From contig OZ024744.1 of assembly GCA_964016885.1 (NCBI GenBank), positions 131,006,001-131,070,000 of the forward strand: a DNA stretch of 64,000 nucleotides, given 5' to 3'. Under the pieces are notes generated by a model. It searched no databases and was not told the DNA's origin. It was given only the letters and a program-made list of their open reading frames with translations. The stretch is from Eledone cirrhosa (lineage: Eukaryota). Below are positions 2,876-62,348 of the stretch, piece by piece. Made by a program: the position numbers and the translations under genes. Position 1 is the first letter of the stretch; every line of letters begins with the position of its first letter.

Positions 2876-3075
2876 AACCCCAACTTAACTTAACCCCATT
2901 TTCACTCAAACCCAACTTAACTCAACCCCAACTTAACTTAACCCCAGCTTCACTCAACCCCAACTTAACTTAACCCCAACTTCACTCAACCCCAACTTAA
3001 CTCAACCCCAACTTAACTTAATCCCAACTTGACTTAACCCCAACTTAACTTAACCCCAACTTAACTTAACCCCAA
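2876..3075 (-). repeat. Inverted cassette 1, subfamily A, 200 bp
   Basis: AACCCCAACTTAACTT units from the GGGGTT|AACCCC dyad to CCCCAAAGTCGGGG; marker CCCCAGCTTCACTC. Confidence 0.93.
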
Positions 3076-4244
3076 AGTCGGGGTTAAGTTAAGTTGGGGG
3101 TAAGTTAAGTTGGGATTAAGTTGGGGTTAAGTTAAGTTAGGGTTAAGTTAAGTTGGGGTTAAGTTAAGTTGGGGTTAAGTTGGGGTTAAATTAAGTTGGG
3201 GCTAAGTTAATTTGTGGTTAAGTTAAGTTGGGGTTAAGTTAAGTTGGGGTTAAGTTAAGTTGCGTTTAAGTTGGGGTTAAGTTAAGTTAGGGTTAAGTTA
3301 AGTTGGGGTTAAGTTAAGTTGGGGTTAATTTAAATTGGGGTTAAGTTAACTTTGTGGTTAAGTTAAGTTGGGGTTAAGTTAAGTTGGGGTTAAGTTGGGA
3401 TTAATTTAAGTTGGGGCTAAGTTAATTTGTGGTTAAGTTAAGTTGGGGTTAAGTTAAGTTGGGGTTAAGTTAAGTTGCGGGTAATTTAAGTTGGCGTTAA
3501 GTTAAGTTGGGGTTAAGTTAAGTTGGGGTTAAGTTAAGTTGGGGTTAAGTTAAGTTGGGGTTTATTTAAGTTGGGGTTAAGTTAAGTTGGGGTTCAGTTA
3601 AGTTGGGGTTCAGTTAAGTTGGGGTTAAGTTAAGTTGGGGTTAAGATGGGGTTAAATTACGTTGGAGTTAAGTTAAGTTGGGGTTAAGTTAAGTTGGGGT
3701 TAAGTTAAGTTGGGGTTAAGTTAAGTCGGGGTTAATTTAAGTCGGGGTTAAGTTAAGTTAGGGTTCAGTTAAGTTGGGGTTAAGTTAAGTTGGGGTTGAG
3801 TTAGTTGGGGTCGAGTTAAATTGGGGTTGAGTTAAGTTGGGCTTGAGTTAAGTTGGTGTTGAGTTAAGTTGGGGTTAAGGTAAATTGGGGTTAATTTAAG
3901 TTGCAGTTAAGTTAAGTTGAGGTTAAGTTAAGGTGCGGTTAAGTTAAGTTGGGGTTAAGTTAAGTTGGGGCTAAGTTAAGTTGGGGCTAAGTTAAGTTGG
4001 GGCTAAGTTAAGTTGGGGTTAAGTTAAGTTGGGGTTAAGTTAAGTCGGGGTTAAGTTAAGTTGGGGTTAAGTTAAGTTGGGGTTAATTTAAGTTGGGGTT
4101 AAGTTAAGTTGGGGTTAAGTTAAGTTGGGGTTAAGTTAAGTTGGGTTTAAGTTAAGTTGGGGTTAAGTTAAGTTGGGGTTAAGTTAAGTTGGGGTTAAGT
4201 TAAGTTGGGGTTAAGTTAAGTTGGGGTTAAGTTAAGTTGGGGTT

Positions 4245-4371
4245 AACCCCAACTTAACTTAACCCCAACTTCACTCAACCCCAACTTAACTTAACCCCAA
4301 CTTCACTCAACCCCAACTTCCAACTTGACTTAACCCCAACTTAACTTAGCCCCAACTTAACTTAAGCCCAA
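4245..4371 (-). repeat. Inverted cassette 2, subfamily B short form, 127 bp
   Basis: Dyad start; internal deletion scar CTTCCAACTTGAC; ends AAGCCCAAAGTCGGGG. Confidence 0.93.
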
Positions 4372-5371
4372 AGTCGGGGTTAAGTTAAGTTTGCGTTAAG
4401 TTAAGTTAGGCTTAACTTAAGTTGGGGTTCAGTTAAGTTGGGGGTAAGTTAAGTTGGGGTTAAGTTAAGTTGCGGTTAAGTTGGGGTTAAGTTAAGTTAG
4501 GGTTAAGTTAATTTGGGGTTGAGTTAAGTTGGGGTTAATTAAGTGGTGGTTATGTTAAGTTGGGGTTAAGTTAAGTTGGGGTTAATTTAAATTGGGGTTA
4601 AGTTAACTTTGTGGTTAAGTTAAGTTGGGGTTAAGTTAAGTGGGGGTAAAGTTGGGGTTGAGTTAAGTTGGGGTTGAGTGAAGTTGGGGTTAAGTTAAGT
4701 TGGGGTTAAGTTAAGTTGGGGTTAAGATAAGTCGGGGTTAAGTTAAGTTGTGGTTGAGTTAAGTTGGGGTTAATTTAAGTTGGGGCTAAGTTAATTTGTG
4801 GTTAAGTTAAGTTGGGGTTAAGTTAAGTTGGGGTTAAGTTAAGTTGGGGTTAAGTTAAGTTGGGGTTAAGATGGGGTTCAATTAAGTTGGGGTTAAGTTA
4901 AGTTGGGGTCAAGTTAAGTTGGGGTTAAGTTAAGTTGGGGTTAAGTTAAGTCGGGGTTAAGTTAAGTCGGGTTTAAGTTAAGTTAGGGTTCAGTTAAGTT
5001 GGGGTTAAGTTAAGTTGGGGTTGAGTTAAGTTGGGGTTGAGTTAAATTGGGGTTGAGTTAAGTTGGGGTTGAGTTAAGTTGGTGTTGAGTTAAGTTGGGG
5101 TTAAGTTAAGTTGGGGTTAAGTTAAGTTGGGGTTAATTTAAGTTGGGGTTAATTTAAGTTGGGGTTAATTTAAGTTGGGGTTAAGTTAAGTTGGGGTTAA
5201 GTTAAGTTGGGGTTAAGTTAAGTTGGGTTTAAGTTAAGTTGGGGTTAAGTTAAGTTGGGGTCAAGTTAAGTTGGGGTTAAGTTAAGTTGGTTAGTTAAGT
5301 CGAGTTTAAGTTAAGTTGGGGTTAATTTAAGTTGGGGTTAAGTTAAGTTGGGGTTAAGTTAAGTTGGGGTT

Positions 5372-5571
5372 AACCCCAACTTAACTTAACCCCAACTTCA
5401 CTCAACCCCAACTTCACTCAACCCCAACTTAACTTAACCCCAACTTCACTCAACCCCAACTTAACTTAACCCCAACTTCACTCAACCCCAACTTAAGTCA
5501 ACCCCAACTTAACTTAACCCCAACTTGACTTAACCCCAACTTAAATTAGCCCCAACTTAACTTAAGCCCAA
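5372..5571 (-). repeat. Inverted cassette 3, subfamily B, 200 bp
   Basis: Dyad start; marker AAATTAGCCCC; ends AAGCCCAAAGTCGGGG. Confidence 0.93.
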
Positions 5572-6831
5572 AGTCGGGGTTAAGTTAAGTTGGCGTTATG
5601 TTAAGTCAGGCTTAACTTAAGTTGGGGTTCAGTTAAGTTGGGGGTAAGTTAAGTTGGGGGTAAGTTAAGTTGGGGTTAAGTTAAGTTGCGGTTAAGTTGG
5701 GGTTAAGTTAAGTTAGGGTTAAGTTAAGTTGGGGTTGAGTTAAGTTGGGGTTAATTAAGTGGTGGTTATGTTAAGTTGGGGTTAATTTAAATTGGGGTTA
5801 AGTTAACATTGTGGTTAAGTTAAGTTGGGGTTAAGTTAAGTTGGGGTTAAGTTGGGGTTGAGTTAAGTTGGGGTTGAGTGAAGTTGGGGTTAAGTTAAGT
5901 TGGGGTAAAGTTAAGTTGGGGTTAAGTTAAGTCGGGGTTAAGTTAAGTTGTGGTTGAGTTAAGTTGGGGTAAAGTTAAGTTGGGGTTAAGTTAAGTTGGG
6001 GTTAAGTTAAGTTGGGGTTGAGTTAAGTTGGGGTTGAGTTAATTTGGGGTTAAGTTAAGTTGGGGTTAAGTTAAGTTGGGTTTAAGTTAAGTTGGGGTTA
6101 AATTAAGTTGGGGTTAAATTAAGTTGGGGTTAAGTTAAGTTGGGGGTAAGTTAAGTTGGGGGCAAGTTAAGTTGGGGCTAAGTTAAGTTGGGGTTAAATT
6201 AAGTTGGGGTTACGTTAAGTTGGTGTTAAGTTAAGTTGGGGTTAATTTAAGTTGGGGTTAATTAAGTTGGGGTTAATTTAAGTTGGGGTTAAGTTAAGTT
6301 GGGGTTAATTTAAGTTGGGGTTGAGTTAAGTTGGGGTTAAGTTAAGTTGGGGTTATATTAAGTTGGGGTTAGGTTAAGTTGGGGTTAAGTTAAGTTGGGG
6401 TTAAGTTAAGTTGGGGTTTATTTAAGTTGGGGTTAAGTTAAGTTGGGGTTAATTTAAGTTGGGGTTGAGTTAAGTTGGTGTTGAGTTAAGTTGCGGTTAT
6501 GTTAAGTTGGGGTTAAGTTAAGTTGGGGTTAAGTTAAGTTGGGGCTGAGTTAAGTTGGGGCTGAGTTAAGTTGGGGTTAAGTTAAGTTGGGGTTAAGTTA
6601 AGTCGGGGTTAAGTTAAGTTGGGGTTAAGTTAAGTTGGGGTTAAGTTAAGTTGGGGTTAAGTTAAGTTGGGGTTAAGTTAAGTTGGGTTTAAGTTAAGTT
6701 GGGGTTAAGTTAAGATGGGGTCAAGTTAAGTTGGGGTTAAGTTAAGTTGGTTAGTTAAGTTGAGTTTAAGTTAAGTTGGGGTTAATTTATGTTGGGGTTA
6801 AGTTAAGTTGGGGTTAAGTTAAGTTGGGGTT

Positions 6832-7031
6832 AACCCCAACTTAACTTAACCCCAACTTCACTCAACCCCAACGTAACTCAACCCCAACTTAACTTAACCC
6901 CAACTTCACTCAACCCCAACTTAACTTAACCCCAACTTCACTCAACCCCAACTTAAGTCAACCCCAACTTAACTTAACCCCAACTTGACTTAACCCCAAC
7001 TTAACTTAGCACGAACTTAACTTAAGCCCAA
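6832..7031 (-). repeat. Inverted cassette 4, subfamily B, 200 bp
   Basis: Dyad start; markers ACGTAACTC and TAGCACGAAC; ends AAGCCCAAAGTCGGGG. Confidence 0.93.
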
Positions 7032-8316
7032 AGTCGGGGTTAAGTTAAGTTGGCGTTAAGTTAAGTTAGGCTTAACTTAAGTTGGGGTTCAGTTAAGTTG
7101 GGGGTAAGTTAAGTTGGGGGTAAGTTAAGTTGGGGTTAAGTTAAGTTGCGTTTAAGTTGGGGTTAAGTTAAGTTAGGGTTAAGTTAAGTTGGGATTAAGT
7201 TAAGTTGGGGATAATTTAAGTTGGGGTTAAGTTGGGGTTAATTTAACTTGGGGCTAAGTTAATTTGTGGTTAAGTTAAGTTGGGGTTAAGTTAAGTTGGG
7301 GTTAAGTTAAGTTGGGGTTGAGTTAAGTTGGGGTTGAGTTAATTTGGGGTTAATTTAAGTTGGGGTTAAGTTAAGTTGGGTTTAAGTTAAGTTGGGGTTA
7401 AATTAAGTTGGGGTTAAATTAAGTTGGGGTTAAGTTAAGTTGGGGGTAAGTTAAGTTGGGGGCAAGTTAAGTTGGGGCTAAGTTAAGTTGGGGTTAAATT
7501 AAGTTGGGGTTACGTTAAGTTGGTGTTAAGTTAAGTTGGGGTTAATTTAAGTTGGGGTTAATTAAGTTGGGGTTAAGTTAAGTTGGGGTTAAGTTAAGTT
7601 GGGGTTTATTTAAGTTGGGGTTAAGTTAAGTTGGGGTTCAGTTAAGTTGGGGTTCAGTTAAGTTGGGGTTAAGTTAAGTTGGGGTTAAGATGGGGTTAAA
7701 TTAAGTTGGGGTTAAGTTAAGTTGGGGTTAAGTTAAGTTGGGGTTAAGTTAAGTTGGGGTTAAGTTAAGTCGGGGTTAAGTTAAGTCGGGGTTAAGTTAA
7801 GTTAGGGTTCAGTTAAGTTGGGGTTAAGTTAAGTTGGGGTTGAGTTAAGTTGGGGTTGAGTTAAATTGGGGTTGAGTTAAGTTGGGGTTGAGTTAAGTTG
7901 GTGTTGAGTTAAGTTGCGGTTATGTTAAGTTGGGGTAAGTTAAGTTGGGGTTAAGTTAAGTTGGGGCTAAGTTAAGTTGGGGCTGAGTTAAGTTGGGGTT
8001 AAGTTAAGTTGGGGTTAAGTTAAGTCGGGGTTAAGTTAAGTTGGGGTTAAGTTAAGTTGGGGTTAAGTTAAGTTGGGGTTAATTAAGTTGGGGTTAAGTT
8101 AAGTTGGGGTTAAGTTTAGTTGGGTTTAAGTTAAGTTGGGGTTAAGTTAAGTTGGGGTCAAGTTAATTTGGGGTTAAGTTAAGTTGGTTAGTTAAGTTGA
8201 GTTTAAGTTAAGTTGGGGTTAATTTATGTTGGGGTTAAGTTAAGTTGGGGTTAAGTTAAGTTGGGGTTAAGTTAAGTTGGGGTTAAGTTAAGTTGGGGTT
8301 AAGTTAAGTTGGGGTT

Positions 8317-8516
8317 AACCCCAACTTAACTTAACCCCAACGTAACTCAACCCCAACGTAACTCAACCCCAACTTAACTTAACCCCAACTTCACTCAACC
8401 CCAACTTAACTTAACCCCAACTTCACTCAACCCCAACTTAAGTCAACCCCAACTTAACTTAACCCCAACTTGACTTAACCCCAACTTAACTTAGCACCAA
8501 CTTAACTTAAGCCCAA
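8317..8516 (-). repeat. Inverted cassette 5, subfamily B, 200 bp
   Basis: Dyad start; ACGTAACTC twice, TAGCACCAAC; ends AAGCCCAAAGTCGGGG. Confidence 0.93.
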
Positions 8517-9727
8517 AGTCGGGGTTAAGTTAAGTTGGCGTTAAGTTAAGTTAGGCTTAACTTAAGTTGGGGTTCAGTTAAGTTGGGGGTAAGTTAAGTT
8601 GGGGGTAAGTTAAGTTGTGGTTAAGTTAAGTTGCGTTTAAGTTGGGGTTAAGTTAAGTTAGGGTTAAGTTAAGTTGGGGTTAAGTTAAGTTGGGGTTAAT
8701 TTAAATTGGGGTTAAGTTAACTTTGTGGTTAAGTTAAGTTGGGGTTAAGTTAAGTTGGGGTTAAGTTGGGGCTAATTTAAGTTGGGGCTAAGTTAATTTG
8801 TGGTTAAGTTAAGTTGGGGTTAAGTTAAGTTGGGGTTAAGTTAAGTTGGGGTTGAGTTAAGTTGGGGTTGAGTTAATTTGGGGTTAATTTAAGTTGGGGT
8901 TAAGTTAAGTTGGGGCTAAGTTAAGTTGGGGCTAAGTTAAGTTGGGGCTAAGTTAAGTTGGGGTTAGGTTAAGTCGGGGTTAAGTTAAGTCGGGGTTAAG
9001 TTAAGTTGGCGTTAAGTTAAGTTGGGGTTAATTTAAGTTGGGGTTAAGTTAAGTTGGGGTTAATTTAAGTTGGGGTTAAGTTAAGTTGCGGGTAATTTAA
9101 GTTGGGGTTAAGTTAAGTTGGGGTTAAGTTAAGTTGGGGTTATGTTAAGTTGGTTAGTTAAGTTGAGTTTAAGTTAAGTTGGGGTTAATTTATGTTGGGG
9201 TTAAGTTAAGTTGGGGTTAAGTTAAGTTGGGGTTAATTTAAGTTGGGGTTAAGTTAAGTTGCGGGTAATTTAAGTTGGGGTTAAGTTAAGTTGGGGTTAA
9301 GTTAAGTTGGGGTTATGTTAAGTTGGGGTTAAGTTAAGTTGGGGTTAAGTTAAGTTGGGGCTAAGTTAAGTTGGGGCTGAGTTAAGTTGGGGTTAAGTTA
9401 AGTTGGGGTTAAGTTAAGTTGGGGATAAGTTAAGTTGGGGTTAAGTTAAGTTGGGGTTTATTTAAGTTGGGGTTAATTTAAGTTGGGGTTCAGTTAAGTT
9501 GGGGTTAAGTTAAGTTGGGGTTAAGTTAAGTTGGGGTTAAGTTAAGTTGGGGTTAAGTTAAGTTGGGTTTAAGTTAAGTTGGGGTTAAGTTAAGTTGGGG
9601 TCAAGTTAAGTTGGGGTTAAGTTAAGTTGGTTAGTTAATTTGAGTTTAAGTTAAGTTGGGGTTAATTTTTGTTGGGGTTAAGTTAAGTTGGGGTTAAGTT
9701 AAGTTGGGGTTAAGTTAAGTTGGGGTT

Positions 9728-9927
9728 AACCCCAACTTAACTTAACCCCAACTTCACTCAACCCCAACGTAACTCAACCCCAACTTAACTTAACCCCAAC
9801 TTCACTCAACCCCAACTTAACTTAACCCCAACTTCACTCAACCCCAACTTAAGTCAACCCCAACTTAACTTAACCCCAACTTGACTTAACCCCAACTTAA
9901 CTTAGCACCAACTTAACTTAAGCCCAA
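9728..9927 (-). repeat. Inverted cassette 6, subfamily B, 200 bp
   Basis: Dyad start; TAGCACCAAC; ends AAGCCCAAAGTCGGGG. Confidence 0.93.
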
Positions 9928-12900
9928 AGTCGGGGTTAAGTTAAGTTGGCGTTAAGTTAAGTTAGGCTTAACTTAAGTTGGGGTTCAGTTAAGTTGGGGG
10001 TAAGTTAAGTTGGGGGTAAGTTAAGTTGGGGTTAAGTTAAGTTGCGTTTAAGTTGGGGTTAAGTTAAGTTAGGGTTAAGTTAAGTTGGGGTTAATTTAAA
10101 TTGGGGTTAAGTTAACTTTGTGGTTAAGTTAAGTTGGGGTTAAGTTAAGTTGGGGTTAAGTTGGGGTTAATTTAAGTTGGGGCTAAGTTAATTTGTGGTT
10201 AAGTTAAGTTGGGGTTAAGTTAAGTTGGGGTTAAGTTAAGTTGGGGTTGAGTTAAGTTGGGGTTGAGTTAATTAGGGGTTAAATTAAGTTGGGGTTAAGT
10301 TAAGTTGGGGGTAAGTTAAGTTGGGGCTAAGTTAAGTTGGGGTTAAATTAAGTTGGGGTTACGTTAAGTTGGTGTTAAGTTAAGTTGGGGTTAATTTAAG
10401 TTGGGGTTAATTAAGTTGGGGTTAAGTTAAGTTGGGGTTAAGTTAAGTTGGGGTTTATTTAAGTTGGGGTTAAGTTAAGTTGGGGTTCAGTTAAGTTGGG
10501 GTTCAGTTAAGTTGGGGTTAATTTAAGTTGGGGTTAAGATGGGGTTAAATTAAGTTGGGGTTAAGTTAAGTTTGGGTTAAGTTAAGTTGGGGTTAAGTTA
10601 AGTTGGGGTTAAGTTAAGTCGGGGTTAAGTTAAGTCGGGGTTAAGTTAAGTTAGGGTTCAGTTAAGTTGGGGTTAAGTTAAGTTGGGGTTGAGTTAAGTT
10701 GGGGTTGAGTTAAATTGGGGTTGAGTTAAGTTGGGGTTGAGTTAAGTTGGTGTTGACTTAAGTTGGGGTTAAGTTAAGTTGGGGTTAAGTTAAGTTGCAG
10801 TTAAGTTAAGTTGAGGTTAAGTTAAGGTGCGGTTAAGTTAAGTTGGGGTTAAGTTAAGTTGGGGCTAAGTTAAGTTGGGGCTAATTTAAGTTGGGGCTAA
10901 GTTACGTTGGGGTTAGGTTAAGTTGGGGTTAAGTTAAGTCGGGGTTAAGTTAAGTTGGCGTTAAGTTAATTTGGGGTTAATTTAAGTTGGGGTTAAGTTA
11001 AGTTGGGGTTAAGTTAAGTTGGGGTTAAGTTAAGTTGGGGTTATGTTAAGTTGGGGTTAAGTTAAGTTGGGGTTAAGTTAAGTTGGGGCTAAGTTAAGTT
11101 GGGGCTGAGTTAAGTTGGGGTTAAGTTAAGTTGGGGTTAAGTTAAGTTTGGGATAAGTTAAGTTGGGGTTAAGTTAAGTTGGGGTTTATTTAAGTTGGGG
11201 TTAATTTAAGTTGGGGTTCAGTTAAGTTGGGGTTCAGTTAAGTTGGGGTTAAGTTAAGTTGGGGTTTATTTAAGTTGGGGTTAATTTAAGTCGGGGTTAA
11301 GTTAAGTCGGGGTTCAGTTAATATAGGGTTAAGTTAAGTTGGGGTTAAGTTAAGTTGCGGTTGTGTTAAGTTGGGGTTGAGTTAAATTGGGGTTGAGTTA
11401 AGTTGGGGTTGAGTTAAGTTGGTGTTCAGTTAAGTTGGGGTTAAGTTAAGTTGGGGTTAATTTAAGTTGCAGTTAAGTTAAGTTGAGGTTAAGTTAAGGT
11501 GGGGTTAAGTTAAGTTGGGGTTAGTTTAAGTTGGGGCTAAGCTAAGTTGGGGCTAAGTTAAGTTGGGGCTAAGTTAAGTTGGGGTTAAGTTAAGTTGGGG
11601 TATATTAAGTTGGGGTTAAGTTAAGTTGGGGTTAAGTTAAGTTGGGGTTAAGTTAAGTTGGGGCTGAGTTAAGTTGGGGCTGAGTTAAGTTGGGGCTGAG
11701 TTAAGTTGGGGTTAAGTTAAGTTGGGGTATATTAAGTTGGGGTTAAGTTAAGTTGGGGTTAAGTTAAGTTGGGGCTGAGTTAAGTTGGGGCTTAGTTAAG
11801 TTGGGGTTAAGTTAAGTTGGGGTTAAGTTAAGTTGGGGTTAAGTTAAGTTGGGGTTAAGTTAAGTTGAGGTTAAGTTAAGTTGGGGTTAAATTAAGTTGG
11901 GGTTAAGTTAAGTTGGGGTTAAGTTAAGTTGGGGTTAAGTTAAGTTGGGGATATGTTAAGTTGGGGATGAGTTAAATTGGGGTTAAGTTAAGTTGGGTTT
12001 AAGTTAAGTTGGGGTTAAGTTAAGTTGGGGTTAAGTTAAGTTGGGGTTAAGTTAAGTTGGTTAGTTAAGTTGAGTTTAAGTTAAGTTGGGGTTAATTTAA
12101 ATCGGGGTTAAGTTAAGTTAGGGTTAAGTTAAGTTGGGGTTGAGTTAAGTTGGGGTTGAGTTAAATTGGGGTTGAGTTAAGTTGGGGTTGAGTTAAGTTG
12201 GTGTTGAGTTAAGTTGGGGTTAAGTTAAGTTGGGGTTAAGTTAAGTTGTGGTTAAGTTAAGTTGAGGTTAAGTTAAGTTGGGGTTAAGTTAAGTTGGGGT
12301 TAATTTAAGTTGGGGCTAAGTTAAGTTGGGGCTAAGTTAAGTTGGGGTTAAGTTAAGTTGGGGTCAACTTAAGTTGGGGTTAAGTTAAGTTGGCGTTAAG
12401 TTAAGTTGGGGTTAAGTTAAGTTGGGGTTAAGTTAAGTTGGTGTTAAGTTAAGTTGGGGCTGAGTTAAGTTGGGGCTGAGTTAAGTTGGGGCTGAGTTAA
12501 GTTGGGGTTCAGTCAAGTTGGGGTTAAGTTAAGTTGGGGTTATTTTAAGTTGGGGTTTAGTTAAGTTGGGGTTCATTTAAGTTGGGGTTAAGTTAAGTTT
12601 GGGTTAAGTTGGGGTTAAATTAATTTGGGGTTAAATGAAGTTGGGGTTAAGTTAAGTTGGGGTTAAGTTAAGTTGGGGTTAATTTAAGTTGGGGTTAAGT
12701 TAAGTTGCGGGTAATTTAAGTTGGGGTTAAGTTAAGTTGGGGTTAAGTTAAGTTGGGGTTAAGTTAAGTTTGGGTTAAGTTAAGTTGGGGTTAAGTTAAT
12801 TTGGGGTTAAGTTGGGGTTAAGTTAAGTTGGGGTTTATTTAAGTTGGGGTTAAGTTAAGTTGGGGTTCAGTTAAGTTGGGGTTCAGTTAAGTTGGGGTTA

Positions 12901-51052: not shown

Positions 51053-54000
51053 AGTCGGGGTTAAGTTAAGTTGGCGTTAAGTTAAGTTAGGCTTAACTTA
51101 AGTTGGGGTTCAGTTAAGTTGGGGGTAAGTTAAGTTGGGGGTAAGTTAAGTTGGGGTTAAGTTAAGTTGCGGTTAAGTTGGGGTTAAGTTAAGTTAGGGT
51201 TAAGTTAAGTTGGGGTTGAGTTAAGTTGGGGTTAATTAAGTGGTGGTTATGTTAAGTTGGGGTTAAGTTAAGTTGGGGTTAATTTAAATTGGGGTTAAGT
51301 TAACTTTGTGGTTAAGTTAAGTTGGGGTTAAGTTAAGTTGGGGTAAAGTTGGGGTTGAGTTAAGTTGGGGTTGAGTGAAGTTGGGGTTAAGTTAAGTTGG
51401 GGTTAAGTTAAGTTGGGGTTAAGATAAGTCGGGGTTAAATTAAGTTGTGGTTGAGTTAAGTTGGGGTTAATTTAAGTTGGGGCTAAGTTAATTTGTGGTT
51501 AAGTTAAGTTGGGGTTAAGTTAAGTTGGGGTTAAGTTAAGTCGGGGTAAGTTAAGTCGGGGTTAAGTTAAGTTAGGGTTAAGTTAAGTTGGGGTTAAGTT
51601 AAGTTGGGGTTGAGTTAAGTTGGGGTTGAGTTAAATTGGGGTTGAGTTAAGTTGGTGTTGAGTTAAGTTGGTGTTGAGTTAAGTTGGGGTTAAGTTAAGT
51701 TGGGGTTAAGTTAAGTTGCGGTTAAGTTAAGTTGAGGTTAAGTTAAGTTGGGGTTAACTTAAGTGTGGGTTAAGTTAAGTTGGGGTTAAGTTAAGTTGGG
51801 GTTAAGTTAAGTTGGTGTTAAGTTAAATTGGGGTTGAGTTAAGTTGGGGCTGAGTTAAGTTGGGGCTGAGTTAAGTTGTGGTTCAGTTAAGTTGGGGTTG
51901 AGTTAAGTTGCGGTTAAGTTAAGTTGGGGTTAAGTTAAGTTGGGGTTATGTTAAGTTGGGGTTAAGGTAGGTTGGGGTTAAGTTAAGTTGGGGTTGAGTT
52001 AAGTTGGGGTTGAGTTAAATTGGGGTTGAGTTAAGTTGGGGTTGAGTTAAGTTGGTGTTGAGTTAAGTTGGGGTTAAGTTAAGTTGGGGTTAAGTTAAGT
52101 TGCGGTTAAGTTAAGTTGGGGTTAAGTTAAGTTGGGGTTAAGTTAAGTTGGGGTTAAGTTAAGTTGGGGTTAAGTTAAGTTGGTGTTAAGTTAAGTTGGG
52201 GCTGAGTTAAGTTGGGGCTGAGTTAAGTTGGGGCTGAGTTAAGTTGGGGTTCAGTTAAGTTGGGGTTAAGTTAAGTTGGGGTTATGTTAAGTTGGGGTTT
52301 AGTTAAGTTGGGGTTCATTTAAGTTGGGGTTAAGTTAAGTTTAGGTTAAGTTGGGGTTAAATTAATTTGGGGTTAAGTTAAGTTGGGGTTAAGTTAAGTT
52401 GGGGTTAATTTAAGTTGGGGTTAATTTAAGTTGGGGTTAAGTTAAGTTGCGGGTAATTTAAGTTGGGGTTAAGTTAAGTTGGGGTTAAGTTAAGTTGGGG
52501 TTAAGTTAAGTTGGGGTTAAGTTAAGTTTGGGTTAAGTTAAGTTGGGGCTAATTTAAGTTGGGGCTGAGTTAAGTTGGGGTTAAGTTAAGTTGGGGTTAA
52601 GTTAATTTGGGGTTAAGTTGGGGTTAAGTTAAGTTGGGGTTTATTTAAGTTGGGGTTAAGTTAAGTTGGGGTTCAGTTAAGTTGGGGTTCAGTTAAGTTG
52701 GGGTTAAGTTAAGTTGGGGTTAAGTTAAGTTGGTTAGTTAAGTTGAGGTTAAGTTAAGTTGGGGTTAAGTTAAGTTGGGGTTAAGTTAAGTTGGGGTTAA
52801 TTTAAGTTAGGGTTAAGTTAAGTTGGGGTTCAGTTAAGTTGGGGTTAAGTCAAGTTGGGGTTAAGTTGGGGTTAAATTAAGTTGGGGCTAAGTTAAGTTG
52901 GGGCTAAGTTAAGTTGGGGCTAAGTTAAGTTGGGGTTCAGTTAAGTTGGGGTTAAGTTAAGTTTGGGTTAAGTTGGGGTTAATTTAAGTTGGGGTTAATT
53001 TAAGTTGCGGTTAAGTTAAGTTGGGGTTAAGTTAAGTGGTGGTTATGTTAAGTTGGGGTTAAGTTAAGTTGGGGTTAATTTAAATTGGGGTTAAGTTAAC
53101 TTTGTGGTTAAGTTAAGTTGGGGTTAAGTTAAGTTGGGGTTAAGTTAAGTTGGGGTTGCGTTAAGTCGGGGTTGAGTGAAGTTGGGGTTAAGTTAAGTTG
53201 GGGTTAATTTAAGTTGGGGTTAAGTTAAGTCGGGCTTAAGTTAAGTTGGGGTTAAGTTAATTTGGGGTTAAGTTAAGTTGGGGTTAAGTTAAGTTGGGGT
53301 TGAGTTAAGTTGGGGTTGAGTTAATTTAGGGTTAAGTTAAGTTGGGGTTAAGTTAAGTTGGGTTTAAGTTAAGTTGGGGTTAAATTAAGTTGGGGTTAAA
53401 TTAAGTTGGGGTTAAGTTAAGTTGGGGGTAAGTTAAGTTGGGGGCAAGTTAAGTTGGGGTTAAGTTAAGTTGGGGTTAAATTAAGTTGGGGTTAAGTTTA
53501 GTTGGTGTTAAGTTAAGTTGGGGTTTATTTAAGTTGGGGTTAATTAAGTTGGGGCTGAGTTAAGTTGGGGCTGAATTAAGTTGGGGTTAAGTTAAGTTGG
53601 GGTTGAGTTAAGTTGGGGTTAAGTTAAGTTGGGGTTAAGTTAAGTTGGGGTTCAGTTAAGTTGGGGTTAAGTTGGGGTTAAATTAATTTGGGGTTAAGTT
53701 AAGTTGGGGTTTAGTTTAGTTGGGGTTAAATTAAGTTGGGGTTAATTTAAGTTGGGGTTAAGTTAAGTTGCGGGTAATTTAAGTTGGGGTTAAGTTAAGT
53801 TGGGGTTAAGTTAAGTTGGGGTTAAGTTAAGTTGGGGTTAAGTTAAGTTGGGGGTAAGTTAAGTTGGGGGTAAGTTAAGTTGGGGTTAAGTTAAGTTGGG
53901 GTTAAGTTAAGTTAGGGTTAAGTTAAGTTGGGGTTGAGTTAAGTTGGGGTTAAGTTAAGTTGGGGTTATGTTAAGTTGGGGTTAAGTTAAGTTGGTTCGT

Positions 54001-54219
54001 TAAGTTGAGTTTAAGTTAAGTGGGGTTAATTTAAGTTGGGGTTAAGTTAAGTTGGGGTTAAGTTAAGTTGGGGTTAAGTTAAGTTGGGGTTAAGTTAAGT
54101 TGGGGTTCAGTTAAGTTGGGGTTAAGTCAAGTTGGGGTTAAGTTAAGTTGGGGTTATGTTAATTTGGGGTTAAGTTAAGTTGGGGTTAAGTTAATTTGTG
54201 GTTAAGTTAAGTTGTGGTT

Positions 54220-54531
54220 AACCCCAACTTCACTCAACCCCACCTTAACTCAACCCCAACTTAACTTAAGCCCAACTTCACTCAACCCCAACTTAACTTA
54301 ACCCCAACTTCACTCAACCCCAACTTAACTCAACCCCAACTTAACTTAACCCCAACTTAACTTAACCCTAACTTAACTTAACCCCAACTTAACTTAACTT
54401 CGACTTAACTTAACCCCAACTTAAATTAACCCCAACTTAACTTAACCCCAACTTAACTTAACCCCAACTTAAATTAACCCCAACTTGACTTAACCCCAAA
54501 TTAACTTAACCCCAACTTAACTTAACCCCAA
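54220..54531 (-). repeat. Inverted cassette 24, subfamily C long form, 312 bp
   Basis: Starts GTGGTT|AACCCC; ends CCCCAAATTCGGGG. Confidence 0.92.
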
Positions 54532-55519
54532 ATTCGGGGTTAAGTTAAGTTGGGGTTAAATTAAGTTAGGCTTAACTTAAGTTGGGGTTAAGTTAATTTG
54601 GGGTTAAGTTCGGGTTAAGTTAAGTTAGGGTTAAGTTAAGTTGGGGTTGAGTTAAGTTGGGGTTAAGTTAAGTTGGGGTTAAGTTAAGTTGGGGTCAAGT
54701 TAAGTTGGGGTTAAAATTAAGTTGGGGTTAAATCAAGTTGGGGTTAAGTTAAAGTGGGGTTAATTTAGTTGGGGTTAAGTTAAGTTGGGGCTAAGTTAAG
54801 TTGGGGCTAAGTTAAGTTGGGACTAAGTTAAGTTGGGGTTAAGTTAAGTTGGGGTTAAGTTAAGTTGGGGTTAATTTAAGTTGGGATTGAGTTAAGTTGG
54901 GGTTAAGTTAAGTTGGGGTTATATTAAGTTGAGGTTAAGTTAAGTTGGGGTTAAGTTAAGTTGGGGTTCAGTTAAGTTGCGGTTAAGTTAAGTTGGGGTT
55001 AAGTTAAGTTGGGGTTAAGTTAAGTTGGGGTTAAGTTAAGTTGGGGTCAAGTTAAGTTGGGGTTAAGTTAAGTTGGGGTTAAATTAAGTTGGGGTTAATT
55101 TAAGTTGGGGTTAATTTAAGCTGGGGTTAAGTTAAGTTGGGGATAATTTAAGTTGGGGATAAGTTAAGTTGGGGTTAAGTTAAGTTGGGTTTAAGTTAAG
55201 TTGGGGTTAAGTTAAGTTGCGGTTAAGTTAAGTTGGTTAGTTAAGTTGAGTTTAAGTTAAGTTGGGGTTAATTTAAGTTGGGGTTAAGTACGTTGGGGTT
55301 AAGTTAAGTTGGGGCTAAGTTAAGTTGGGGTTCAGTTAAGTTGGGGTTAAATCAATTTGGGGTTAAGTTGGGGTTAAATTAATTTGGGGTTAAGTTAAGT
55401 TGGGGTTAAGTTAAGTTGGGGTTAAGTTAAGTTGGGGTTAAGTTAAGTTGGGGTTAAGTTAAGTTGAAGTTAAGTTAAGTTTGGGTTGAGTTAAGTTGGG
55501 GTTGAGTTAAATTGGGGTT

Positions 55520-56007
55520 AACTCCAACTTAAGTTAACCCCAACTTAACTTAACCCCAACTTCACTCAACCCCAACTTAACTTAACCCCAACTTCACTCA
55601 ACCCCAACTTAACTCAACCCCAACCTAACTTAACCCCAACTTCACTCAACCCCAACTTATCTTAACCCCAACTTCACTCAACCCCAACTTAACTCAACCC
55701 CAACTTAACTTAACCCCAACTTAACTTAACCCTAACTTAACTTAACCCCGACTTAACTTAACCTCGACTTAACTTAACCCCAACTTAATTTAACCCCAAC
55801 TTAACTTAACCCCAACTTAACTTAACCACAAATTAACTTAACCCCAACTTCAATTAACCCCAACTTAACTTAACCCCAACTTAACTTAACCCCAACTTAA
55901 CTTAACCCCAACTTAACTCACACCCAACTTACCTTACCCCCAACTTAACTTAACCCCAACTTGACTTAACCCCAACTTAACTTAACCCCAACTTAACTTA
56001 ACCCCAA
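55520..56007 (-). repeat. Inverted cassette 25, subfamily C, longest at 488 bp
   Basis: Starts GGGGTT|AACTCC; ends CCCCAAATTCGGGG. Confidence 0.92.
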
Positions 56008-57949
56008 ATTCGGGGTTAAGTTATGTTGGGGTTAAGTTAAGTTAGGCCTAACTTAAGTTGGAGTTAAGTTAAGTTGGGGGTAAGTTAAGTTGGGGGTAAG
56101 TTAAGTTGGGGTTAAGTTAAGTTGGGGTTAAGTTGGGGTTAAGTTAAGTTAGGGTTAAGTTAAGTTGGGGTTGAGTTAAGTTGGGGTTAAGTTAAGTGGT
56201 GGTTATGTTAAGTTGGGGTGAAGTTAACTGGGGTTAATTTAAATTGGTGTTAAGTTAACTTTGTGGTTAAGTTAAGTTGGGGTTAAGTTAAGTTGGGGTT
56301 AAGTTAAGTTGGGGTTGAGTTAAGTTGGGGTTGAGTGAAGTTGGGGTTAAGTTAAGTTGGGGTTAATTTAAGTTGGGGTTAAATTAAGTTGGGGTTAAGT
56401 TAAGTTGGGGGTAAGATAAGTTGGGAGCAAGTTAAGTTGGGGTTAAGTTAAGTTGGGGTTAAATTAAGTTGGGGTTAAGTTAAGTTGGGGTTATATTAAG
56501 TTGGGGTTAAGTTAAGTTGGGGTTAAGTTAAGTTGGGGTTCAGTTAAGTTGCGGTTAAGTTAAGTTGGGGTTAAGTTAAGTTGGGGTTAAGTTAAGTTGG
56601 GGTCAAGTTAAGTTGGGGTTATGTTAAGTTGGGGTTTAGTTAAGTTGGTGTTCATTTAAGTTGGGGTTAAGTTAAGTTTGGGTTAAGTTGGGGTTAAATT
56701 AAGTTGGGGTTAAGTTAAGTTGGGGTTAAGTTAAGTTGGGGTTAAGTTAAGTTGGGGTTAAGTTAAGTTGGGGTTAATTTAAGTTGGGGTTAAGTTAAGT
56801 TGCGGGTAATTTAAGTTGGGGTTAAGTTAAGTTGGGGTTAAGTTAAGTTGGGGTTAAGTTAAGTTGGGGTTAAGGTAAGTTGGGGTTAAGTTAAATTGGG
56901 GCTAAGTTAAGTTGGGGCTGAGTTAAGTTGGGGTTAAGTTAAGTTGGGGTTAAGTTAAGTTGGGGTTAAGTTAAGTTGGGGTTAAGTTAAGTTGGGGTTG
57001 AGTTAAGTTGGGGTTAAGTTAAGTAGGGGTAAGTTAAGTTGGGGTTCAGTTAAGTTGGGGTTAAGTTAAGTTGGGGTTAAGTTAAGTTGGGGTTAAGTTA
57101 AGTCGGGGTTAAGTTAAGTCGGGGTTAAGTTAAGTTAGGGTTAAGTTAAGTTGGAGTTAAGTTAAGTTGGGGTTGAGTTAAGTTGGGGTTGAGTTAAATT
57201 GGGGTTGAGTTAAGTTGGGGTTGAGTTAAGTTGGTGTTGAGTTAAGTTGGGGTTAAATTGAGTTGGGGTTAAATTAAGTTGGGGTTAAGTAAATTTGGGG
57301 GTAAGTTAAGTTGGGGGCAAGTTAAGTTGGGGCTAATTTAAGTTGGGGTTAAATTAAGTTGGGGTTACGTTAAGTTGGTGTTAAGTTAAGTTGGGGTTAA
57401 TTTAAGTTGGGGTTAATTAAGTTAGGGTTAAGTTAAGTTGGGGTTAAGTTAAGTTGGGGTTAATTTAAGTTGGGGTTGAGTTAAGTTAGGGTTAAGTTAA
57501 GTTGGGGTTATATTAAGTTGGGGTTAAGTTAAGTTGGGGTTAAGTTAAGTTGGGGTTCAGTTAAGTTGCGGTTAAGTTAAGTTGGGGTTAAGTTAAGTTG
57601 GGGTTAAGTTAAGTTGGGGTTAAGTTAAGTTGGAGTCAAGTTAAGTTGGGGTTAAGTTAAGTTGGGGTTAAGTTAAGTTGGTTAGTTAAGTTGAGTTTAA
57701 GTTAAGTTGGGGTTAATTTAAGTTGGGGTTAAGTTAAGTTGGGGTTAAGTTAAGTTGGGGTTAAGTTAAGTTGGGGTTAAGTTAAGTTGGGGTTCAGTTA
57801 AGTTGGGGTTAAGTCAAGTTGGGGTTAATTTGGGGTTAAATTAATTTGGGGTTAAGTTAAGTTGGGGTTAAGTTAAGTTGGGGTTATGTTAAGTTGGGGT
57901 TAAGTTAAGTTGGGTTTAAGTTAATTCGTGGTTAAGTTAAGTTGTGGTT

Positions 57950-58309
57950 AACCCCAACTTCACTCAACCCCACCTTAACTCAACCCCATATTAACTTAAC
58001 CCCAACTTCACTCAACCCCAACTTAACTTAACCCCAACTTCACTCAACCCCAACTTAAATCAACCCCAACTTAACATAACCCCAACTTAACTTAACCCTA
58101 ACTTAACTTAACCCCGACTTAACTTAACTTCGAATTAACTTAACCCCAACTTAACTTAACCCCAACTTAACTTAACCCCAACTTAACTTAACCACAAATT
58201 AACTTAACCCCAACTTAACTCACACCCAACTTAACTTACCCCCAACTTAACTTAACCCCAACTTGACTTAACCCCAAATTAACTTAACCCCAACTTAACT
58301 TAACCCCAA
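57950..58309 (-). repeat. Inverted cassette 26, subfamily C long form, 360 bp
   Basis: Starts GTGGTT|AACCCC; ends CCCCAAATTCGGGG. Confidence 0.92.
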
Positions 58310-58903
58310 ATTCGGGGTTAAGTTAAGTTGGGGTTAAGTTAAGTTAGGCTTAACTTAAGTTGGGGTTAAGTTAAGTTGGGGGTAAGTTAAGTTCTGGGTA
58401 AGTTAAGTTGGGGTTAAGTTAAGTTGGGGTTAAGTTGGGGTTAAGTTAAGTTAGGGTTAAGTTAAGTTGGGGTTGAGTTAAGTTGGGGTTAAGTTAAGTT
58501 AGGGTTAATTTAAGTTGGGGCTAAGTTAAGTTGGGGCTGAGTTAAGTTGGGGTTAAGTTAAGTTGGGGTTAAGTTAAGTTGGGGATAAGTTAAGTTGGGG
58601 TTAAGTTAAGTTGGGGTTTATTTAAGTTGGGGTTAATTTAAGTTGGGGTTCAGTTAAGTTGGGGTTAAGTTAAGTTGGGGTTAAGTTAAGTTGGGGTTAA
58701 GTTAAGTTGGTGTTAAGTTAAGTTGGGTTTAAGTTAAGTTGGGGTTAAGTTAAGTTGGGGTCAAGTTAAGTTGGGGTTAAGTTAAGTTGGTTAGTTAAGT
58801 TGAGTTTAAGTTAAGTTGGGGTTAATTTATGTTGGGGTTAAGTTAAGTTGGGGTTAAGTTAAGTTGGGGTTAAGTTAAGTTGGGGTTAAGTTAAGTTGGG
58901 GTT

Positions 58904-59103
58904 AACCCCAACTTAACTTAACCCCAACTTCACTCAACCCCAACGTAACTCAACCCCAACTTAACTTAACCCCAACTTCACTCAACCCCAACTTAACTTA
59001 ACCCCAACTTCACTCAACCCCAACTTAAGTCAACCCCAACTTAACTTAACCCCAACTTGACTTAACCCCAACTTAACTTAGCACCAACTTAACTTAAGCC
59101 CAA
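58904..59103 (-). repeat. Inverted cassette 27, subfamily B (AAAGCC junction), 200 bp
   Basis: Matches cassette 17; ends AAGCCCAAAGCCGGGG. Confidence 0.93.
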
Positions 59104-62100
59104 AGCCGGGGTTAAGTTAAGTTGGCGTTAAGTTAAGTTAGGCTTAACTTAAGTTGGGGTTCAGTTAAGTTGGGGGTAAGTTAAGTTGGGGGTAAGTTAA
59201 GTTGGGGTTAAGTTAAGTTGCGTTTAAGTTGGGGTTAAGTTAAGTTAGGGTTAAGTTAAGTTGGGGTTAAGTTAAGTTGGGGTTAATTTAAATTGGGGTT
59301 AAGTTAACTTTGTGGTTAAGTTAAGTTGGGGTTAAGTTAAGTTGGGGTTAAGTTGGGGTTAATTTAAGTTGGGGCTAAGTTAATTTGTGGTTAAGTTAAG
59401 TTGGGGTTAAGTTAAGTTGGGGTTAAGTTAAGTTGGGGTTGAGTTAAGTTGGGGTTGAGTTAATTTGGGGTTAAATTAAGTTGGGGTTAAGTTAAGTTGG
59501 GGGTAAGTTAAGTTGGGGCTAAGTTAAGTTGGGGTTAAATTAAGTTGGGGTTACGTTAAGTTGGTGTTAAGTTAAGTTGGGGTTAATTTAAGTTGGGGTT
59601 AATTAAGTTGGGGTTAAGTTAAGTTGGGGTTAAGTTAAGTTGGGGTTTATTTAAGTTGGGGTTAAGTTAAGTTGGGGTTCAGTTAAGTTGGGGTTAAGTT
59701 AAGTTGGGGTTAAGATGGGGTTAAATTAAGTTGGGGTTAAGTTAAGTTGGGGTTAAGTTAAGTCGGGGTTAAGTTAAGGTAGGGTTCAGTTAAGTTGGGG
59801 TTAAGTTAAGTTGGGGTTGAGTTAAGTTGGGGTTGAGTTAAATTGGTGTTGAGTTAAGTTGGGGTTAAGTTAAGTTGGGGTTAAGTTAAGTTGCAGTTAA
59901 GTTAAGTTGAGGTTAAGTTAAGGTGCGGTTAAGTTAAGTTGGGGCTAAGTTAAGTTGGGGCTAAGTTAAGTTGGGGCTAAGTTACGTTGGGGTTAGGTTA
60001 AGTTGGGGTTAAGTTAAGTCGGGGTTAAGTTAAGTTGGCGTTAAGTTAAGTTGGGGTTAATTTAAGTTGGGGTTAGGTTAAGTTGGGGTTAATTTAAGTT
60101 GGGGTTAAGTTAAGTTGCGGGTAATTTAAGTTGGGGTTAAGTTAAGTTGGGGTTAAGTTAAGTTGGGGATAAGTTAAGTTGGGGTTAAGTTAAGTTGGGG
60201 TTTATTTAAGTTGGGGTTAATTTAAGTTGGGGTTCAGTTAAGTTGGGGTTCAGTTAAGTTGGGGTTAAGTTAAGTTGGGGTTTATTTAAGTTGGGGTTAA
60301 TTTAAGTCGGGGTTAAGTTAAGTCGGGGTTAAGTTAAGATAGGGTTAAGTTAAGTTGGGGTTAAGTTAAGTTGGGGTTGTGTTAAGTTGGGGTTGAGTTA
60401 AATTGGGGTTGAGTTAAGTTGGGGTTGAGTTAAGTTGGTGTTGAGTTAAGTTGGGGTTAAGTTAAGTTGGGGTTAATTTAAGTTGCAGTTAAGTTAAGTT
60501 GAGGTTAAGTTAAGGTGAGGTTAAGTTAAGTTGGGGTTAATTTAAGTTGGGGCTAAGCTAAGTTGGGGCTAATTTAAGTTGGGGCTAAGTTAAGTTGGGG
60601 TTAAGTTAGGTTGGGGTATATTAAGTTGGGGTTAAGTTAAGTTGGGGTTAAGTTAAGTTGGGGTTAAATTAAGTTGGTGTTAAGTTAAGTTGGGGCTGAG
60701 TTAAGTTGGGGCTGAGTTAAGTTGGGGCTGAGTTAAGTTGGGGTTAAGATAAGTTGGGGTTGAGTTAAGTTGGGGTTAAGTTAAGTTGGGGTTAAGTTAA
60801 GTTGGGGTTAAGTTGGGGTTAAGTTAAGTTAGGTTTAAGTTAAGTTGGGTTTAAGTTAAGTTGGGGTTAAGTTAAGTTGGGGTTAAGTTAAGTTGGGTTT
60901 AAGTTAAGTTGGGGTTAAGTTAAGTTGGGGTTAAGTTAAGTCGGGGTTAAGTTAAGTTGGGTTTAAGTTAAGTTGGGGTTAAGTTAAGTTGGGGTTAAGT
61001 TAAGTTGGGGTTAAGTTAAGTTGGTTAGTTAAGTTGAGTTTAAGTTAAGTTGGGGTTAATTTAAGTCGGGGTTAAGTTAAGTTAGGGTTAAGTTAAGTTG
61101 GGGTTGAGTTAAGTTGGGGTTGAGTTAAATTGGGGTTGAGTTAAGTTGGGGTTGAGTTAAGTTGGTGTTGAGTTAAGTTGGGGTTAAGTTAAGTTGGGGT
61201 TAAGTTAAGTGGTGGTTAAGTTAAGTTGAGGTTAAGTTAAGTTGGGGTTAAGTTAAGTTGGGGTTAATTTAAGTTGGGGCTAAGTTAAGTTGGGGCTAAG
61301 TTAAGTTGGGGTTAAGTTAAGTTGGGGTCAACTTAAGTTGGGGTTAAGTTAAGTTGGCGTTAAGTTAAGTTGGGGTTAAGTTAAGTTGGGGTTAAGTTAA
61401 GTTGGTGTTAAGTTAAGTTGGGGCTGAGTTAAGTTGGGGCTGAGTTAAGTTGGGGCTGAGTTAAGTTGGGGTTCAGTCAAGTTGGGGTTGAGTTAAGTTG
61501 CGGTTAAGTTAAGTTGGGGTTAAGTTAAGTTGGGGTTATTTTAAGTTGGGGTTTAGTTAAGTTGGGGTTCATTTAAGTTGGGGTTAAATGAAGTTGGGGT
61601 TAAGTTAAGTTGGGGTTAAGTTAAGTTGGGGTTAATTTAAGTTGGGGTTAAGTTAACTTGCGGGTAATTTAAGTTGGGGTTAAGTTAAGTTGGCGTTAAG
61701 TTAAGTTGGGGTTAAGTTAAGTTTGGGTTAAGTTAAGTTGGGGTTGAGTTAATTTGGGGTTAAGTTAAGTTGGGGTTAAGTTAAGTTGGGGTTTATTTAA
61801 GTTGGGGTTAAGTTAAGTTGGGGTTCAGTTAAGTTGGGGTTCAGTTAAGTTGGGGTTAAGTTAAGTTGGGGTTAAGATGGGGTTAAATTAAGTTGGGGTT
61901 AAGTTAAGTTGGTTAGTTAAGTTGAGGTTAAGTTAAGTTGGGCTTAAGTTAAGTTGGGGTTAATTTAAGTTGGGGTTAAGTTAAGTTGGGGTTCAGTTAA
62001 GTTGGGGTTAAGTCAAGTTGGGGTTAAGTTGGGGTTAAATTAAGTTGGGGTTAAGTTAAGTTGGGGTCAAGTTAAGTTAGGGTTAAGTTAAGTTGGGGTT

Positions 62101-62148
62101 AAGTTAAGTTGGGGTTAAGTTAATTTGTGGTTAAGTTAAGTTGGGGTT

Positions 62149-62348
62149 AACCCCAACTTAACTTAACCCCAACTTCACTCAAACCCAACTTAACTCAACC
62201 CCAACTTAACTTAACCCCAGCTTCACTCAACCCCAACTTAACTTAACCCCAACTTCACTCAACCCCAACTTAACTCAACCCCAACTTAACTTAACCCCAA
62301 CTTGACTTAACCCCAACTTAACTTAACCCCAACTTAACTTAACCCCAA
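62149..62348 (-). repeat. Inverted cassette 28, subfamily A, 200 bp
   Basis: CCCCAGCTTC; ends CCCCAAAGTCGGGG; downstream flank matches that of cassette 19. Confidence 0.93.

What the first reader, a model, noticed from the sequence alone, without database searches (positions are those of the whole stretch)
2876..62348. Satellite punctuated by 28 stereotyped ~200-bp inverted cassettes with fixed junctions
Seen: every 0.95-4.4 kb (often about 1.4-1.5 kb) the array flips strand for a short block and flips back. 19 of 28 blocks are exactly 200 bp (12.5 monomers). All share one entry junction (GGTT|AAC; full GGGGTTAACCCC in 25) and one exit junction (AAAGTCGGGG x22, AAAGCCGGGG x3, AAATTCGGGG x3). 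Inference: one ancestral inversion was amplified and kept at high density. Established: long near-perfect palindromes are generally unstable and deletion-prone, so keeping about 56 inversion junctions in 64 kb is unexpected. It may reflect function (cruciform-marked centromere or subtelomere, dsRNA source) or an amplification mechanism that uses the junction.
Basis: partly seen in the sequence, partly recalled or inferred. Interest (0 to 1): 0.75.

Follow-up and report, generated by a model that had tools for sequence, protein, structure and literature searches.

The report
Passenger inversion inside a satellite array
A stretch of a 16-base DNA repeat carries 28 short back-to-front patches with the same two joints, part of about 850 in this genome, which likely descend from one old copying slip and were likely carried along as the repeat duplicated itself, with no sign so far that they have a job.

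Summary
Observation confirmed: 28 inverted blocks, 19 of them 200 bp, one entry and one exit junction family. The exit junction occurs 848 times genome-wide; all listed copies lie on contig C28, in an ~8.4-Mb array of an animal genome. "200 bp" is local: lengths run 127-488 bp. Cassettes travel with both flanks (Mantel 0.77/0.65) inside 1-4 kb higher-order units; over 3 Mb of the same array has none. Matched forward segments have equal copy numbers, the junctions are not detectably more conserved and are not breakpoint hotspots. Unfitted neutral simulations reach the observed density and regularity in a minority of runs. Perfect arms are only 27 bp in most copies. Best reading: one ancestral template-switch inversion, passively amplified; it occasionally serves as an inverted-repeat substrate (three events seen, one ending a ~560-kb reversed block). 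Closest: Tribolium conserved satellite inversion sites; human HSat3B5. Raw reads and CENP-A data were not tested. The scan reported this family before from five other windows of the same array.

The parts
1..64000 (+). 16-bp satellite array (TTGGGGTTAAGTTAAG)n, G-rich strand on +; part of an ~8.4-Mb array at C28 ~126.9-135.35 Mb; organised in variable 1-4 kb higher-order units
2876..3075 (-). cassette 1, 200 bp, AACCCC-exit subfamily
4245..4371 (-). cassette 2, 127 bp (internal deletion)
5372..5571 (-). cassette 3, 200 bp, AAGCCC-exit subfamily
6832..7031 (-). cassette 4, 200 bp
8317..8516 (-). cassette 5, 200 bp
9728..9927 (-). cassette 6, 200 bp; entry palindrome centred between 9727 and 9728 (27-bp perfect arms), exit hairpin with 6-nt loop at 9926-9931
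13244..13443 (-). cassette 7, 200 bp (copy of cassette 1 at offset 10368)
14613..14739 (-). cassette 8, 127 bp
16742..16941 (-). cassette 9, 200 bp
18610..18761 (-). cassette 10, 152 bp
20209..20408 (-). cassette 11, 200 bp
21605..21804 (-). cassette 12, 200 bp (copy of cassette 4 at offset 14773)
23090..23289 (-). cassette 13, 200 bp
24501..24700 (-). cassette 14, 200 bp
28052..28171 (+). 120-bp forward segment that is the exact reverse complement of 28364-28483, the exit-side part of cassette 15; likely an arm-to-arm conversion tract
28284..28483 (-). cassette 15, 200 bp
29826..30025 (-). cassette 16, 200 bp
33103..33302 (-). cassette 17, 200 bp, AAAGCC exit
37549..37732 (-). cassette 18, 184 bp, AAAGCC exit
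40678..40876 (-). cassette 19, 199 bp
44629..44828 (-). cassette 20, 200 bp
46165..46364 (-). cassette 21, 200 bp
48024..48223 (-). cassette 22, 200 bp
50910..51052 (-). cassette 23, 143 bp
54220..54531 (-). cassette 24, 312 bp, long subfamily (GTGGTT entry, AAATTC exit)
55520..56007 (-). cassette 25, 488 bp, long subfamily
57950..58309 (-). cassette 26, 360 bp, long subfamily
58904..59103 (-). cassette 27, 200 bp, AAAGCC exit
62149..62348 (-). cassette 28, 200 bp

Best explanation
The 28 blocks are copies of one short back-to-front segment of the satellite that likely arose once by a double template switch during replication or repair and was then likely multiplied as a passenger of ordinary tandem and block duplications. 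It sits in a variable 1-4 kb higher-order unit and is copied with both flanks; in-register slippage inside it changes its length, mostly by multiples of 16 bp, without touching the junctions. It likely persists because its perfect arms are short (about 27 bp) and because direct-repeat exchange can only copy or remove it whole. As a by-product it likely acts now and then as an inverted-repeat substrate for conversion between arms and for larger inversions. Shown: anatomy, common descent markers, co-duplication with flanks, patchy distribution. Inferred: the template-switch origin, neutrality, and the mechanism of the three secondary events.
For: In 1.064 Mb examined, 250 entry and 257 exit switches fall into the two junction families (permissive patterns); the rest are 7 switches across non-satellite gaps and 3 copies of a ~10-bp false switch. 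Cassette interiors share one variant order across all domains. Cassette distance tracks flank distance among 44 distinct 200-bp cassettes (of 91): Mantel rho 0.77 upstream and 0.65 downstream, null maxima 0.28 and 0.34. Blocks of 4.7 and 5.5 kb at 99.9% identity carry several cassettes each. The genome-wide exit list jumps from 124.69 to 130.25 Mb although the satellite fills 127.0-130.24 Mb; 19 of 19 ten-kb samples at 127.0-130.24, 133.36-134.4 and 135.05-135.3 Mb and 3 of 3 on C2 and C3 have no cassette. Like for like, 12-monomer cassette windows have a median of 53 recognisable copies (CV 1.20), random forward windows 47 (CV 1.16); 7 of 253 indel or multi-change forward variants have at least as many copies as the cassette. 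Derived alleles at the entry and exit match the interior rate (1 vs 1.5 and 2 vs 1.5 expected). Flank lineages at 10 monomers: 3 up and 3 down for the cassette, 1-8 and 2-10 for 12 control markers. Neutral simulations with large blocks give 149 or more copies in 1-29 of 60 runs and CV of 0.44 or less in 3-16 of 60, with the cassette among the most regular 5% of markers in 11-41 of 51-58 runs. Junction phase does not fit a clean two-break flip (sequence), and the size fits small inverted triplications (PMC13334657).
Against: The cassette has the most regular spacing of 55 tokens with 40 or more copies in the 294 kb (CV 0.44). Simulations were not fitted; those with smaller blocks gave median CV 0.87-2.14, and even the large-block sets reach 0.44 in a minority of runs. 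The entry is preceded by a purer run than chance (2.6 vs 0.5 consensus monomers) and 27-bp perfect arms are longer than 95% of random in-register pairs; this is one lineage's inheritance in my reading, but conversion or selection could also give it. The conservation test has low power (30 distinct sequences). The source segment of the original event could not be identified for most cassette types, so the DUP/INV/DUP anatomy is not shown. No raw reads, chromatin or RNA data were examined.
Confidence: 0.76

Rival explanations
1. The cassettes are maintained by selection as hairpin or cruciform landmarks that mark a centromeric or heterochromatic subdomain, or as a source of double-stranded RNA, as proposed for Tribolium inversion sites.
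For: Both junctions fold into strong hairpins (-22 to -39 kcal/mol per 80 nt against -4 for plain satellite). Spacing is the most regular of 55 tokens. The cassettes cluster in a 2.5-Mb domain in the middle of the array. Same satellite lies near the middle of C2 and C3.
Against: Any inversion in a satellite gives such hairpins. All listed copies are on one contig, and the mid-chromosome arrays sampled on C2 and C3 have none. Density varies from 0 to 6 per 10 kb inside the domain. No excess conservation at the junctions; centre mutations are tolerated and copied.
Confidence: 0.09
2. The entry palindrome drives its own amplification: cruciform cleavage or fork stalling at the junction triggers repair that duplicates cassette-bearing units.
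For: Zero-spacer 54-bp perfect palindrome in 100 of 149 copies. Cruciform-forming repeats stall forks and are cleaved (PMC12887540, passages). Some duplicated segments end in the pure run just before an entry. Three secondary exchange events involve cassettes.
Against: Flank breakpoints near the cassette are no denser than near 12 control markers. None of 387 exit junctions of the tested pattern is individually flipped. Cassette-free parts of the array expanded to megabases without it.
Confidence: 0.08
3. The cassettes are assembly or library artefacts (fold-back chimeras, or one real cassette over-expanded by the assembler).
For: Some blocks are 99.9% identical. The region has assembly gaps at about 124.69 and 132.79 Mb. 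Raw reads were not examined.
Against: Chimeras would not share two junction sequences, nested subfamilies, regional lengths and a cassette history congruent with both flanks. 44 distinct cassette-plus-flank versions among 91 copies. The exact copy number and the orientation of the block beside the gap could still be off.
Confidence: 0.04
4. The cassette is a non-autonomous transposon (piggyBac-like or fold-back) that inserts at TTAA sites of the satellite.
For: The entry reads GGGG-TTAA-CCCC, which resembles piggyBac ends at a TTAA target (recalled, not from a call).
Against: Upstream flanks are inherited with the cassette (rho 0.77; shared 13-mer marker a few monomers upstream); only one of the two TTAA positions of the monomer is used; polarity relative to the bulk strand never changes; no foreign sequence lies in the cassette.
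Confidence: 0.02

Closest known systems
Conserved inversion sites in Tribolium madens TmSat1/TmSat2 (INV_1a, INV_1b, INV_2; PMC13081366, passages seen) and T. freemani TfSat01 (six types; PMC12581902, passages seen)
   Same: Hundreds to thousands of near-identical strand-switch junctions inside satellite arrays, no foreign sequence at the junction, predicted hairpins with small loops.
   Different: Tribolium arrays form roughly symmetric multi-kb dyads on many or all chromosomes at putative centromeres. Here the inverted arm is short (127-488 bp), two junctions always come as an out-and-back pair in fixed polarity, all listed copies are on one contig, and most of the same satellite lacks them.
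Human HSat3B5 (chr9) and beta-satellite arrays with over 200 inversion breakpoints (bioRxiv 10.1101/2021.07.12.452052, passages seen)
   Same: A short-period satellite array of megabase size with hundreds of strand switches.
   Different: The passages seen give only the count. That the published version traces them to a few duplicated junctions is recalled and could not be checked (not held). Unit, species and cassette geometry differ.
Small inverted triplications, SIT (PMC13334657, abstract and Discussion read)
   Same: Forward-inverted-forward structure with a centre of about 160 bp, attributed to two template switches; junction microhomology (TTAA at the entry here).
   Different: SITs are rare, unstable single events in yeast mutants and tumours; this one is inherited and present in about 850 copies. 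The flanking duplications that define an SIT cannot be shown inside a satellite, and the entry has no spacer.

Membership tests
Amplified satellite inversion sites (Tribolium type) | Many near-identical strand-switch junctions in a satellite array | tested here: met
   786 entries and 848 exits genome-wide; 250 and 257 in two families in 1.064 Mb
Amplified satellite inversion sites (Tribolium type) | No extraneous sequence at the junction; hairpin stem almost to the tip | tested here: met
   zero spacer at entry, 6-nt loop at exit
Tribolium macro-dyad symmetry | Multi-kb, roughly symmetric inverted subarrays | tested here: not met
   inverted arm 127-488 bp between forward runs of 0.3-4 kb or more
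Tribolium macro-dyad symmetry | Same inversion types on several chromosomes | tested here: not met
   lists start at C28 and the samples on C2 and C3 have none; only the first 100 places are listed, so later contigs are not excluded
Tribolium macro-dyad symmetry | Location in (peri)centromeric chromatin | not testable with these tools
   no CENP-A or cytological data; array lies 1.1-9.6 Mb from the end of C28
Small inverted triplication (SIT) | Inverted centre of about 160 bp between direct-orientation copies | tested here: met
   127-488 bp centre, forward satellite on both sides
Small inverted triplication (SIT) | Flanks are duplicates of the inverted centre (DUP/IN/DUP) | tested here: inconclusive
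   no source above shuffled null for most cassette types; a 120-bp upstream match in one sub-lineage covers only the exit side
Simple two-break inversion | Entry and exit phases are reciprocal, with no gain or loss | tested here: not met
   an entry at GGTT|AAC predicts an exit AACTT|AAGTT; the exit seen is CCCCAA|AGTCGGGG, 6-8 bases out of phase (sequence)
piggyBac-like or fold-back transposon | Independent insertions into unrelated flanks, either polarity | tested here: not met
   flanks congruent with cassette; 0 of 387 exits flipped
Telomere array | Unit is the organism's telomere repeat and the array is at the chromosome end | tested here: not met
   genome has 41,132 matches to (TTAGGG)8; the array ends about 1.1 Mb before the contig end, which is a 30-bp satellite. 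That TTAGGG is the telomere repeat here is inferred

The most novel reading that the evidence does not exclude
The cassette-bearing 2.5-Mb subdomain is the functional (CENP-A or heterochromatin-nucleating) core of the array, marked every ~2 kb by a retained zero-spacer palindrome, while the same cassettes act as built-in U-turns that remodel the array by arm-to-arm conversion and large inversions. With cassette-free satellite of the same unit next door as an internal control, it would be a direct test of the idea that dyad symmetry, not sequence, marks centromeres.
Probability: 0.08. Interest if true: 0.7.

Novelty: new member of a known kind. Interest (0 to 1): 0.25.

Why it matters
As read here it is an ordinary product of satellite turnover, useful mainly as a caution: hundreds of identical inversion junctions can come from one event plus duplication, so junction conservation alone (the argument used for Tribolium) does not show function. 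It also gives a natural control, the same satellite with and without cassettes on one chromosome, and shows that an old micro-inversion can template later exchanges and larger inversions.

Tried and rejected
Transposon reading from the TTAA-centred entry: rejected. Fixed 200-bp length as a functional constant: rejected. Breakpoint hotspot at the junctions: not found. Excess conservation at the junctions: not found, low power. Source of the original inversion: not found for most types (26 cassette types scored, every third distinct type plus the 448-bp one, 12 shuffles each). First neutral simulations with small blocks did not reproduce the low CV in the median; large-block sets did in a minority of runs. 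One search used a mistyped pattern and found nothing; one search is the corrected one. Sequencing-run search: three runs of one sample hold 54-58% of the sampled words and may be the source of the assembly; the share cannot tell junction words from plain satellite; a fourth run at 0.12 is no evidence. Junction support in raw reads remains untested. Rfam on four neighbouring loci gave only histone 3' stem-loops. No paper holds the monomer string (five rotations); two phrase searches for amplified short satellite inversions gave 0 and 1 irrelevant paper. Supplements of the Tribolium and human papers were not opened and may hold junction-level detail.
Full report
Observation. The whole window is an array of the 16-mer TTGGGGTTAAGTTAAG.

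Setting. The window lies at C28:131.006-131.070 Mb of a 3.0-Gb genome; C28 is 136.5 Mb. Histone 3' stem-loops nearby indicate an animal, and (TTAGGG)8 has 41,132 matches, so the 16-mer is likely not the telomere repeat, though it resembles it. Samples place the array from between 126.81 and 127.0 Mb to between 135.31 and 135.4 Mb. The same unit occurs near the middle of C2 (as a composite with a ~270-bp spacer) and C3. The entry 18-mer has 786 matches and the exit pattern 848 (821 forward, 27 reverse), with 0 for reversed controls. Only the first 100 places are listed; they are all on C28, and the list jumps from 124.69 to 130.25 Mb. Cassette domains are 124.6-124.69 (reversed), 130.25-132.79, 132.8-133.355 (reversed) and about 134.6-134.9 Mb; 19 of 19 ten-kb samples from the other parts of the array and 3 of 3 from C2 and C3 have no cassette.

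One origin. In 1.064 Mb examined, 250 entry and 257 exit switches match the two junction families; 7 switches cross non-satellite gaps and 6 calls are three copies of a ~10-bp false switch (the patterns are permissive). Interiors share an order of diagnostic monomers in all domains. Length is regional: 175, 200 and 216 bp at 130.25-131.25, 392-488 at 131.25-131.75, 137-448 at 132.0-132.8; 66 of 110 lengths are 8 modulo 16. The polarity relative to the bulk strand is fixed, also in reversed domains; 0 of 387 exits of one pattern are flipped. The two junctions are not reciprocal in phase, so the event was not a clean two-break flip; two template switches, as proposed for small inverted triplications (PMC13334657, abstract and Discussion), fit best, but a flip with end processing is not excluded and the source segment was not found.

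How it multiplied. Monomer strings show a variable higher-order unit with one cassette each. Blocks of 4.7 and 5.5 kb at 99.9% identity, at offsets of 10.4 and 14.8 kb, carry several cassettes. Among 44 distinct 200-bp cassettes with flanks (of 91 copies in 294 kb), cassette distance follows upstream and downstream distance (rho 0.77 and 0.65), which rules against independent insertion.

Is the density special? In 294 kb there are 149 cassettes, mean spacing 1961 bp, CV 0.44, the lowest of 55 tokens with 40 or more copies; 7 of 253 indel or multi-change forward variants are at least as common. The low CV partly reflects that an inversion is recognised whatever its point changes: scored like for like, cassette windows (median 53 copies, CV 1.20, n 40) equal random forward windows (47, CV 1.16, n 150). 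In neutral simulations where direct-repeat exchange copies or deletes the cassette only whole, small-block settings gave median CV 0.87-2.14, and six large-block settings gave 149 or more copies in 1-29 of 60 runs and CV of 0.44 or less in 3-16 of 60, with the cassette often the most regular marker. These runs were not fitted; they show that neutrality can do it, not that it did. Junction columns carry as many derived alleles as the interior, with low power. Flank breakpoints near the cassette are not denser than near 12 control markers.

Palindromes. The entry is a zero-spacer palindrome with 27-bp perfect arms in 100 of 149 copies, at most 43 bp elsewhere; mirror identity is 0.91 over 64 bp; the exit has a 6-nt loop and is broken after 3 bp in 122 of 149. 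Both fold well as single strands, as any inversion in a satellite must.

Secondary events. Three cases suggest that the cassette sometimes recombines with forward sequence. A 448-bp cassette at 132.6 Mb contains an inverted copy of about 12 monomers of the forward unit (score 75, shuffled maximum 29). Window 28052-28171 is the exact reverse complement of 28364-28483; the diagnostic part of this motif occurs forward 11 times, all at 130.9-131.2 Mb, and the direction cassette-to-flank is inferred from that narrow range. The reversed block that ends at 133,355,375 does so at a cassette exit, after which cassette sequence gives way to ordinary forward array within about 40 bp; its other end is an assembly gap, so its size (about 560 kb) and mechanism are uncertain.

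Comparison. Tribolium madens and T. freemani have thousands of conserved satellite inversion sites, confirmed there in raw reads and proposed to be functional (PMC13081366, PMC12581902; passages). Human HSat3B5 and beta satellite hold over 200 inversion breakpoints (bioRxiv 10.1101/2021.07.12.452052, passages). The present case is of that kind, but asymmetric, paired and, as far as listed, confined to one contig. The monomer string was not found in the paper library. The scan's earlier notes on five other windows of this array reach the same reading; they are not independent support.

Verdict. Real, and most likely a single old micro-inversion carried as a passenger to about 850 copies (0.76). 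Function (0.09), junction-driven amplification (0.08), artefact (0.04) and transposon (0.02) are less likely. Raw-read and chromatin tests remain open. Interest 0.25.

Noticed in passing
L018, L019 (G000:C2:209.3 and 209.6 Mb): The same 16-mer forms a composite satellite: about 250 bp of the repeat alternate with a conserved ~270-bp non-repeat spacer, over at least 0.5 Mb near the middle of a 416-Mb contig; a centromere candidate.
   Followed up: no
L001, L002:1-9473 (C28 124.56-124.60 Mb): A related, more diverged 32-bp satellite abuts the 16-mer array; the boundary runs through a cassette (about 200 bp of cassette, then the entry palindrome), so the array edge may have formed by exchange between a cassette and the 32-mer array.
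   Followed up: partly
L003:1-2729, L016:1341-6250, L027, L030, L031, L052: An AT-rich 36-37-bp repeat element with an internal palindrome interrupts the satellite; at 132.1-132.8 Mb it replaces the entry junction of one cassette lineage and is co-amplified with it.
   Followed up: partly
window 5598-5611 and equivalents 2-3 monomers downstream of most exits: GTTAAG is read as CTTAAC, its reverse complement; a possible 6-bp micro-inversion as old as the cassette, or two G-to-C changes.
   Followed up: no
L005, L021-L023 (C28 124.75-125.8 Mb): Tandem units with rearranged 54-, 263- and 319-bp repeats that look like rRNA gene fragments (recalled resemblance; Rfam gave no rRNA hit on L005), a histone 3' stem-loop, a 172-bp repeat and short TTAGGG-like runs.
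   Followed up: no
G000:C1 from 217.84 Mb: A long interstitial (TTAGGG)n-rich block of at least 130 kb.
   Followed up: no
L038 and L040 (C28 135.5 Mb and contig end): A 48-bp satellite follows the array, and the contig ends in a 30-bp C-rich satellite rather than telomere repeat.
   Followed up: no
L004:~6500 and L084:~3900: 200-N assembly gaps at the end of the 124.6-Mb domain and at the left end of the reversed 132.8-133.355 Mb block.
   Followed up: partly
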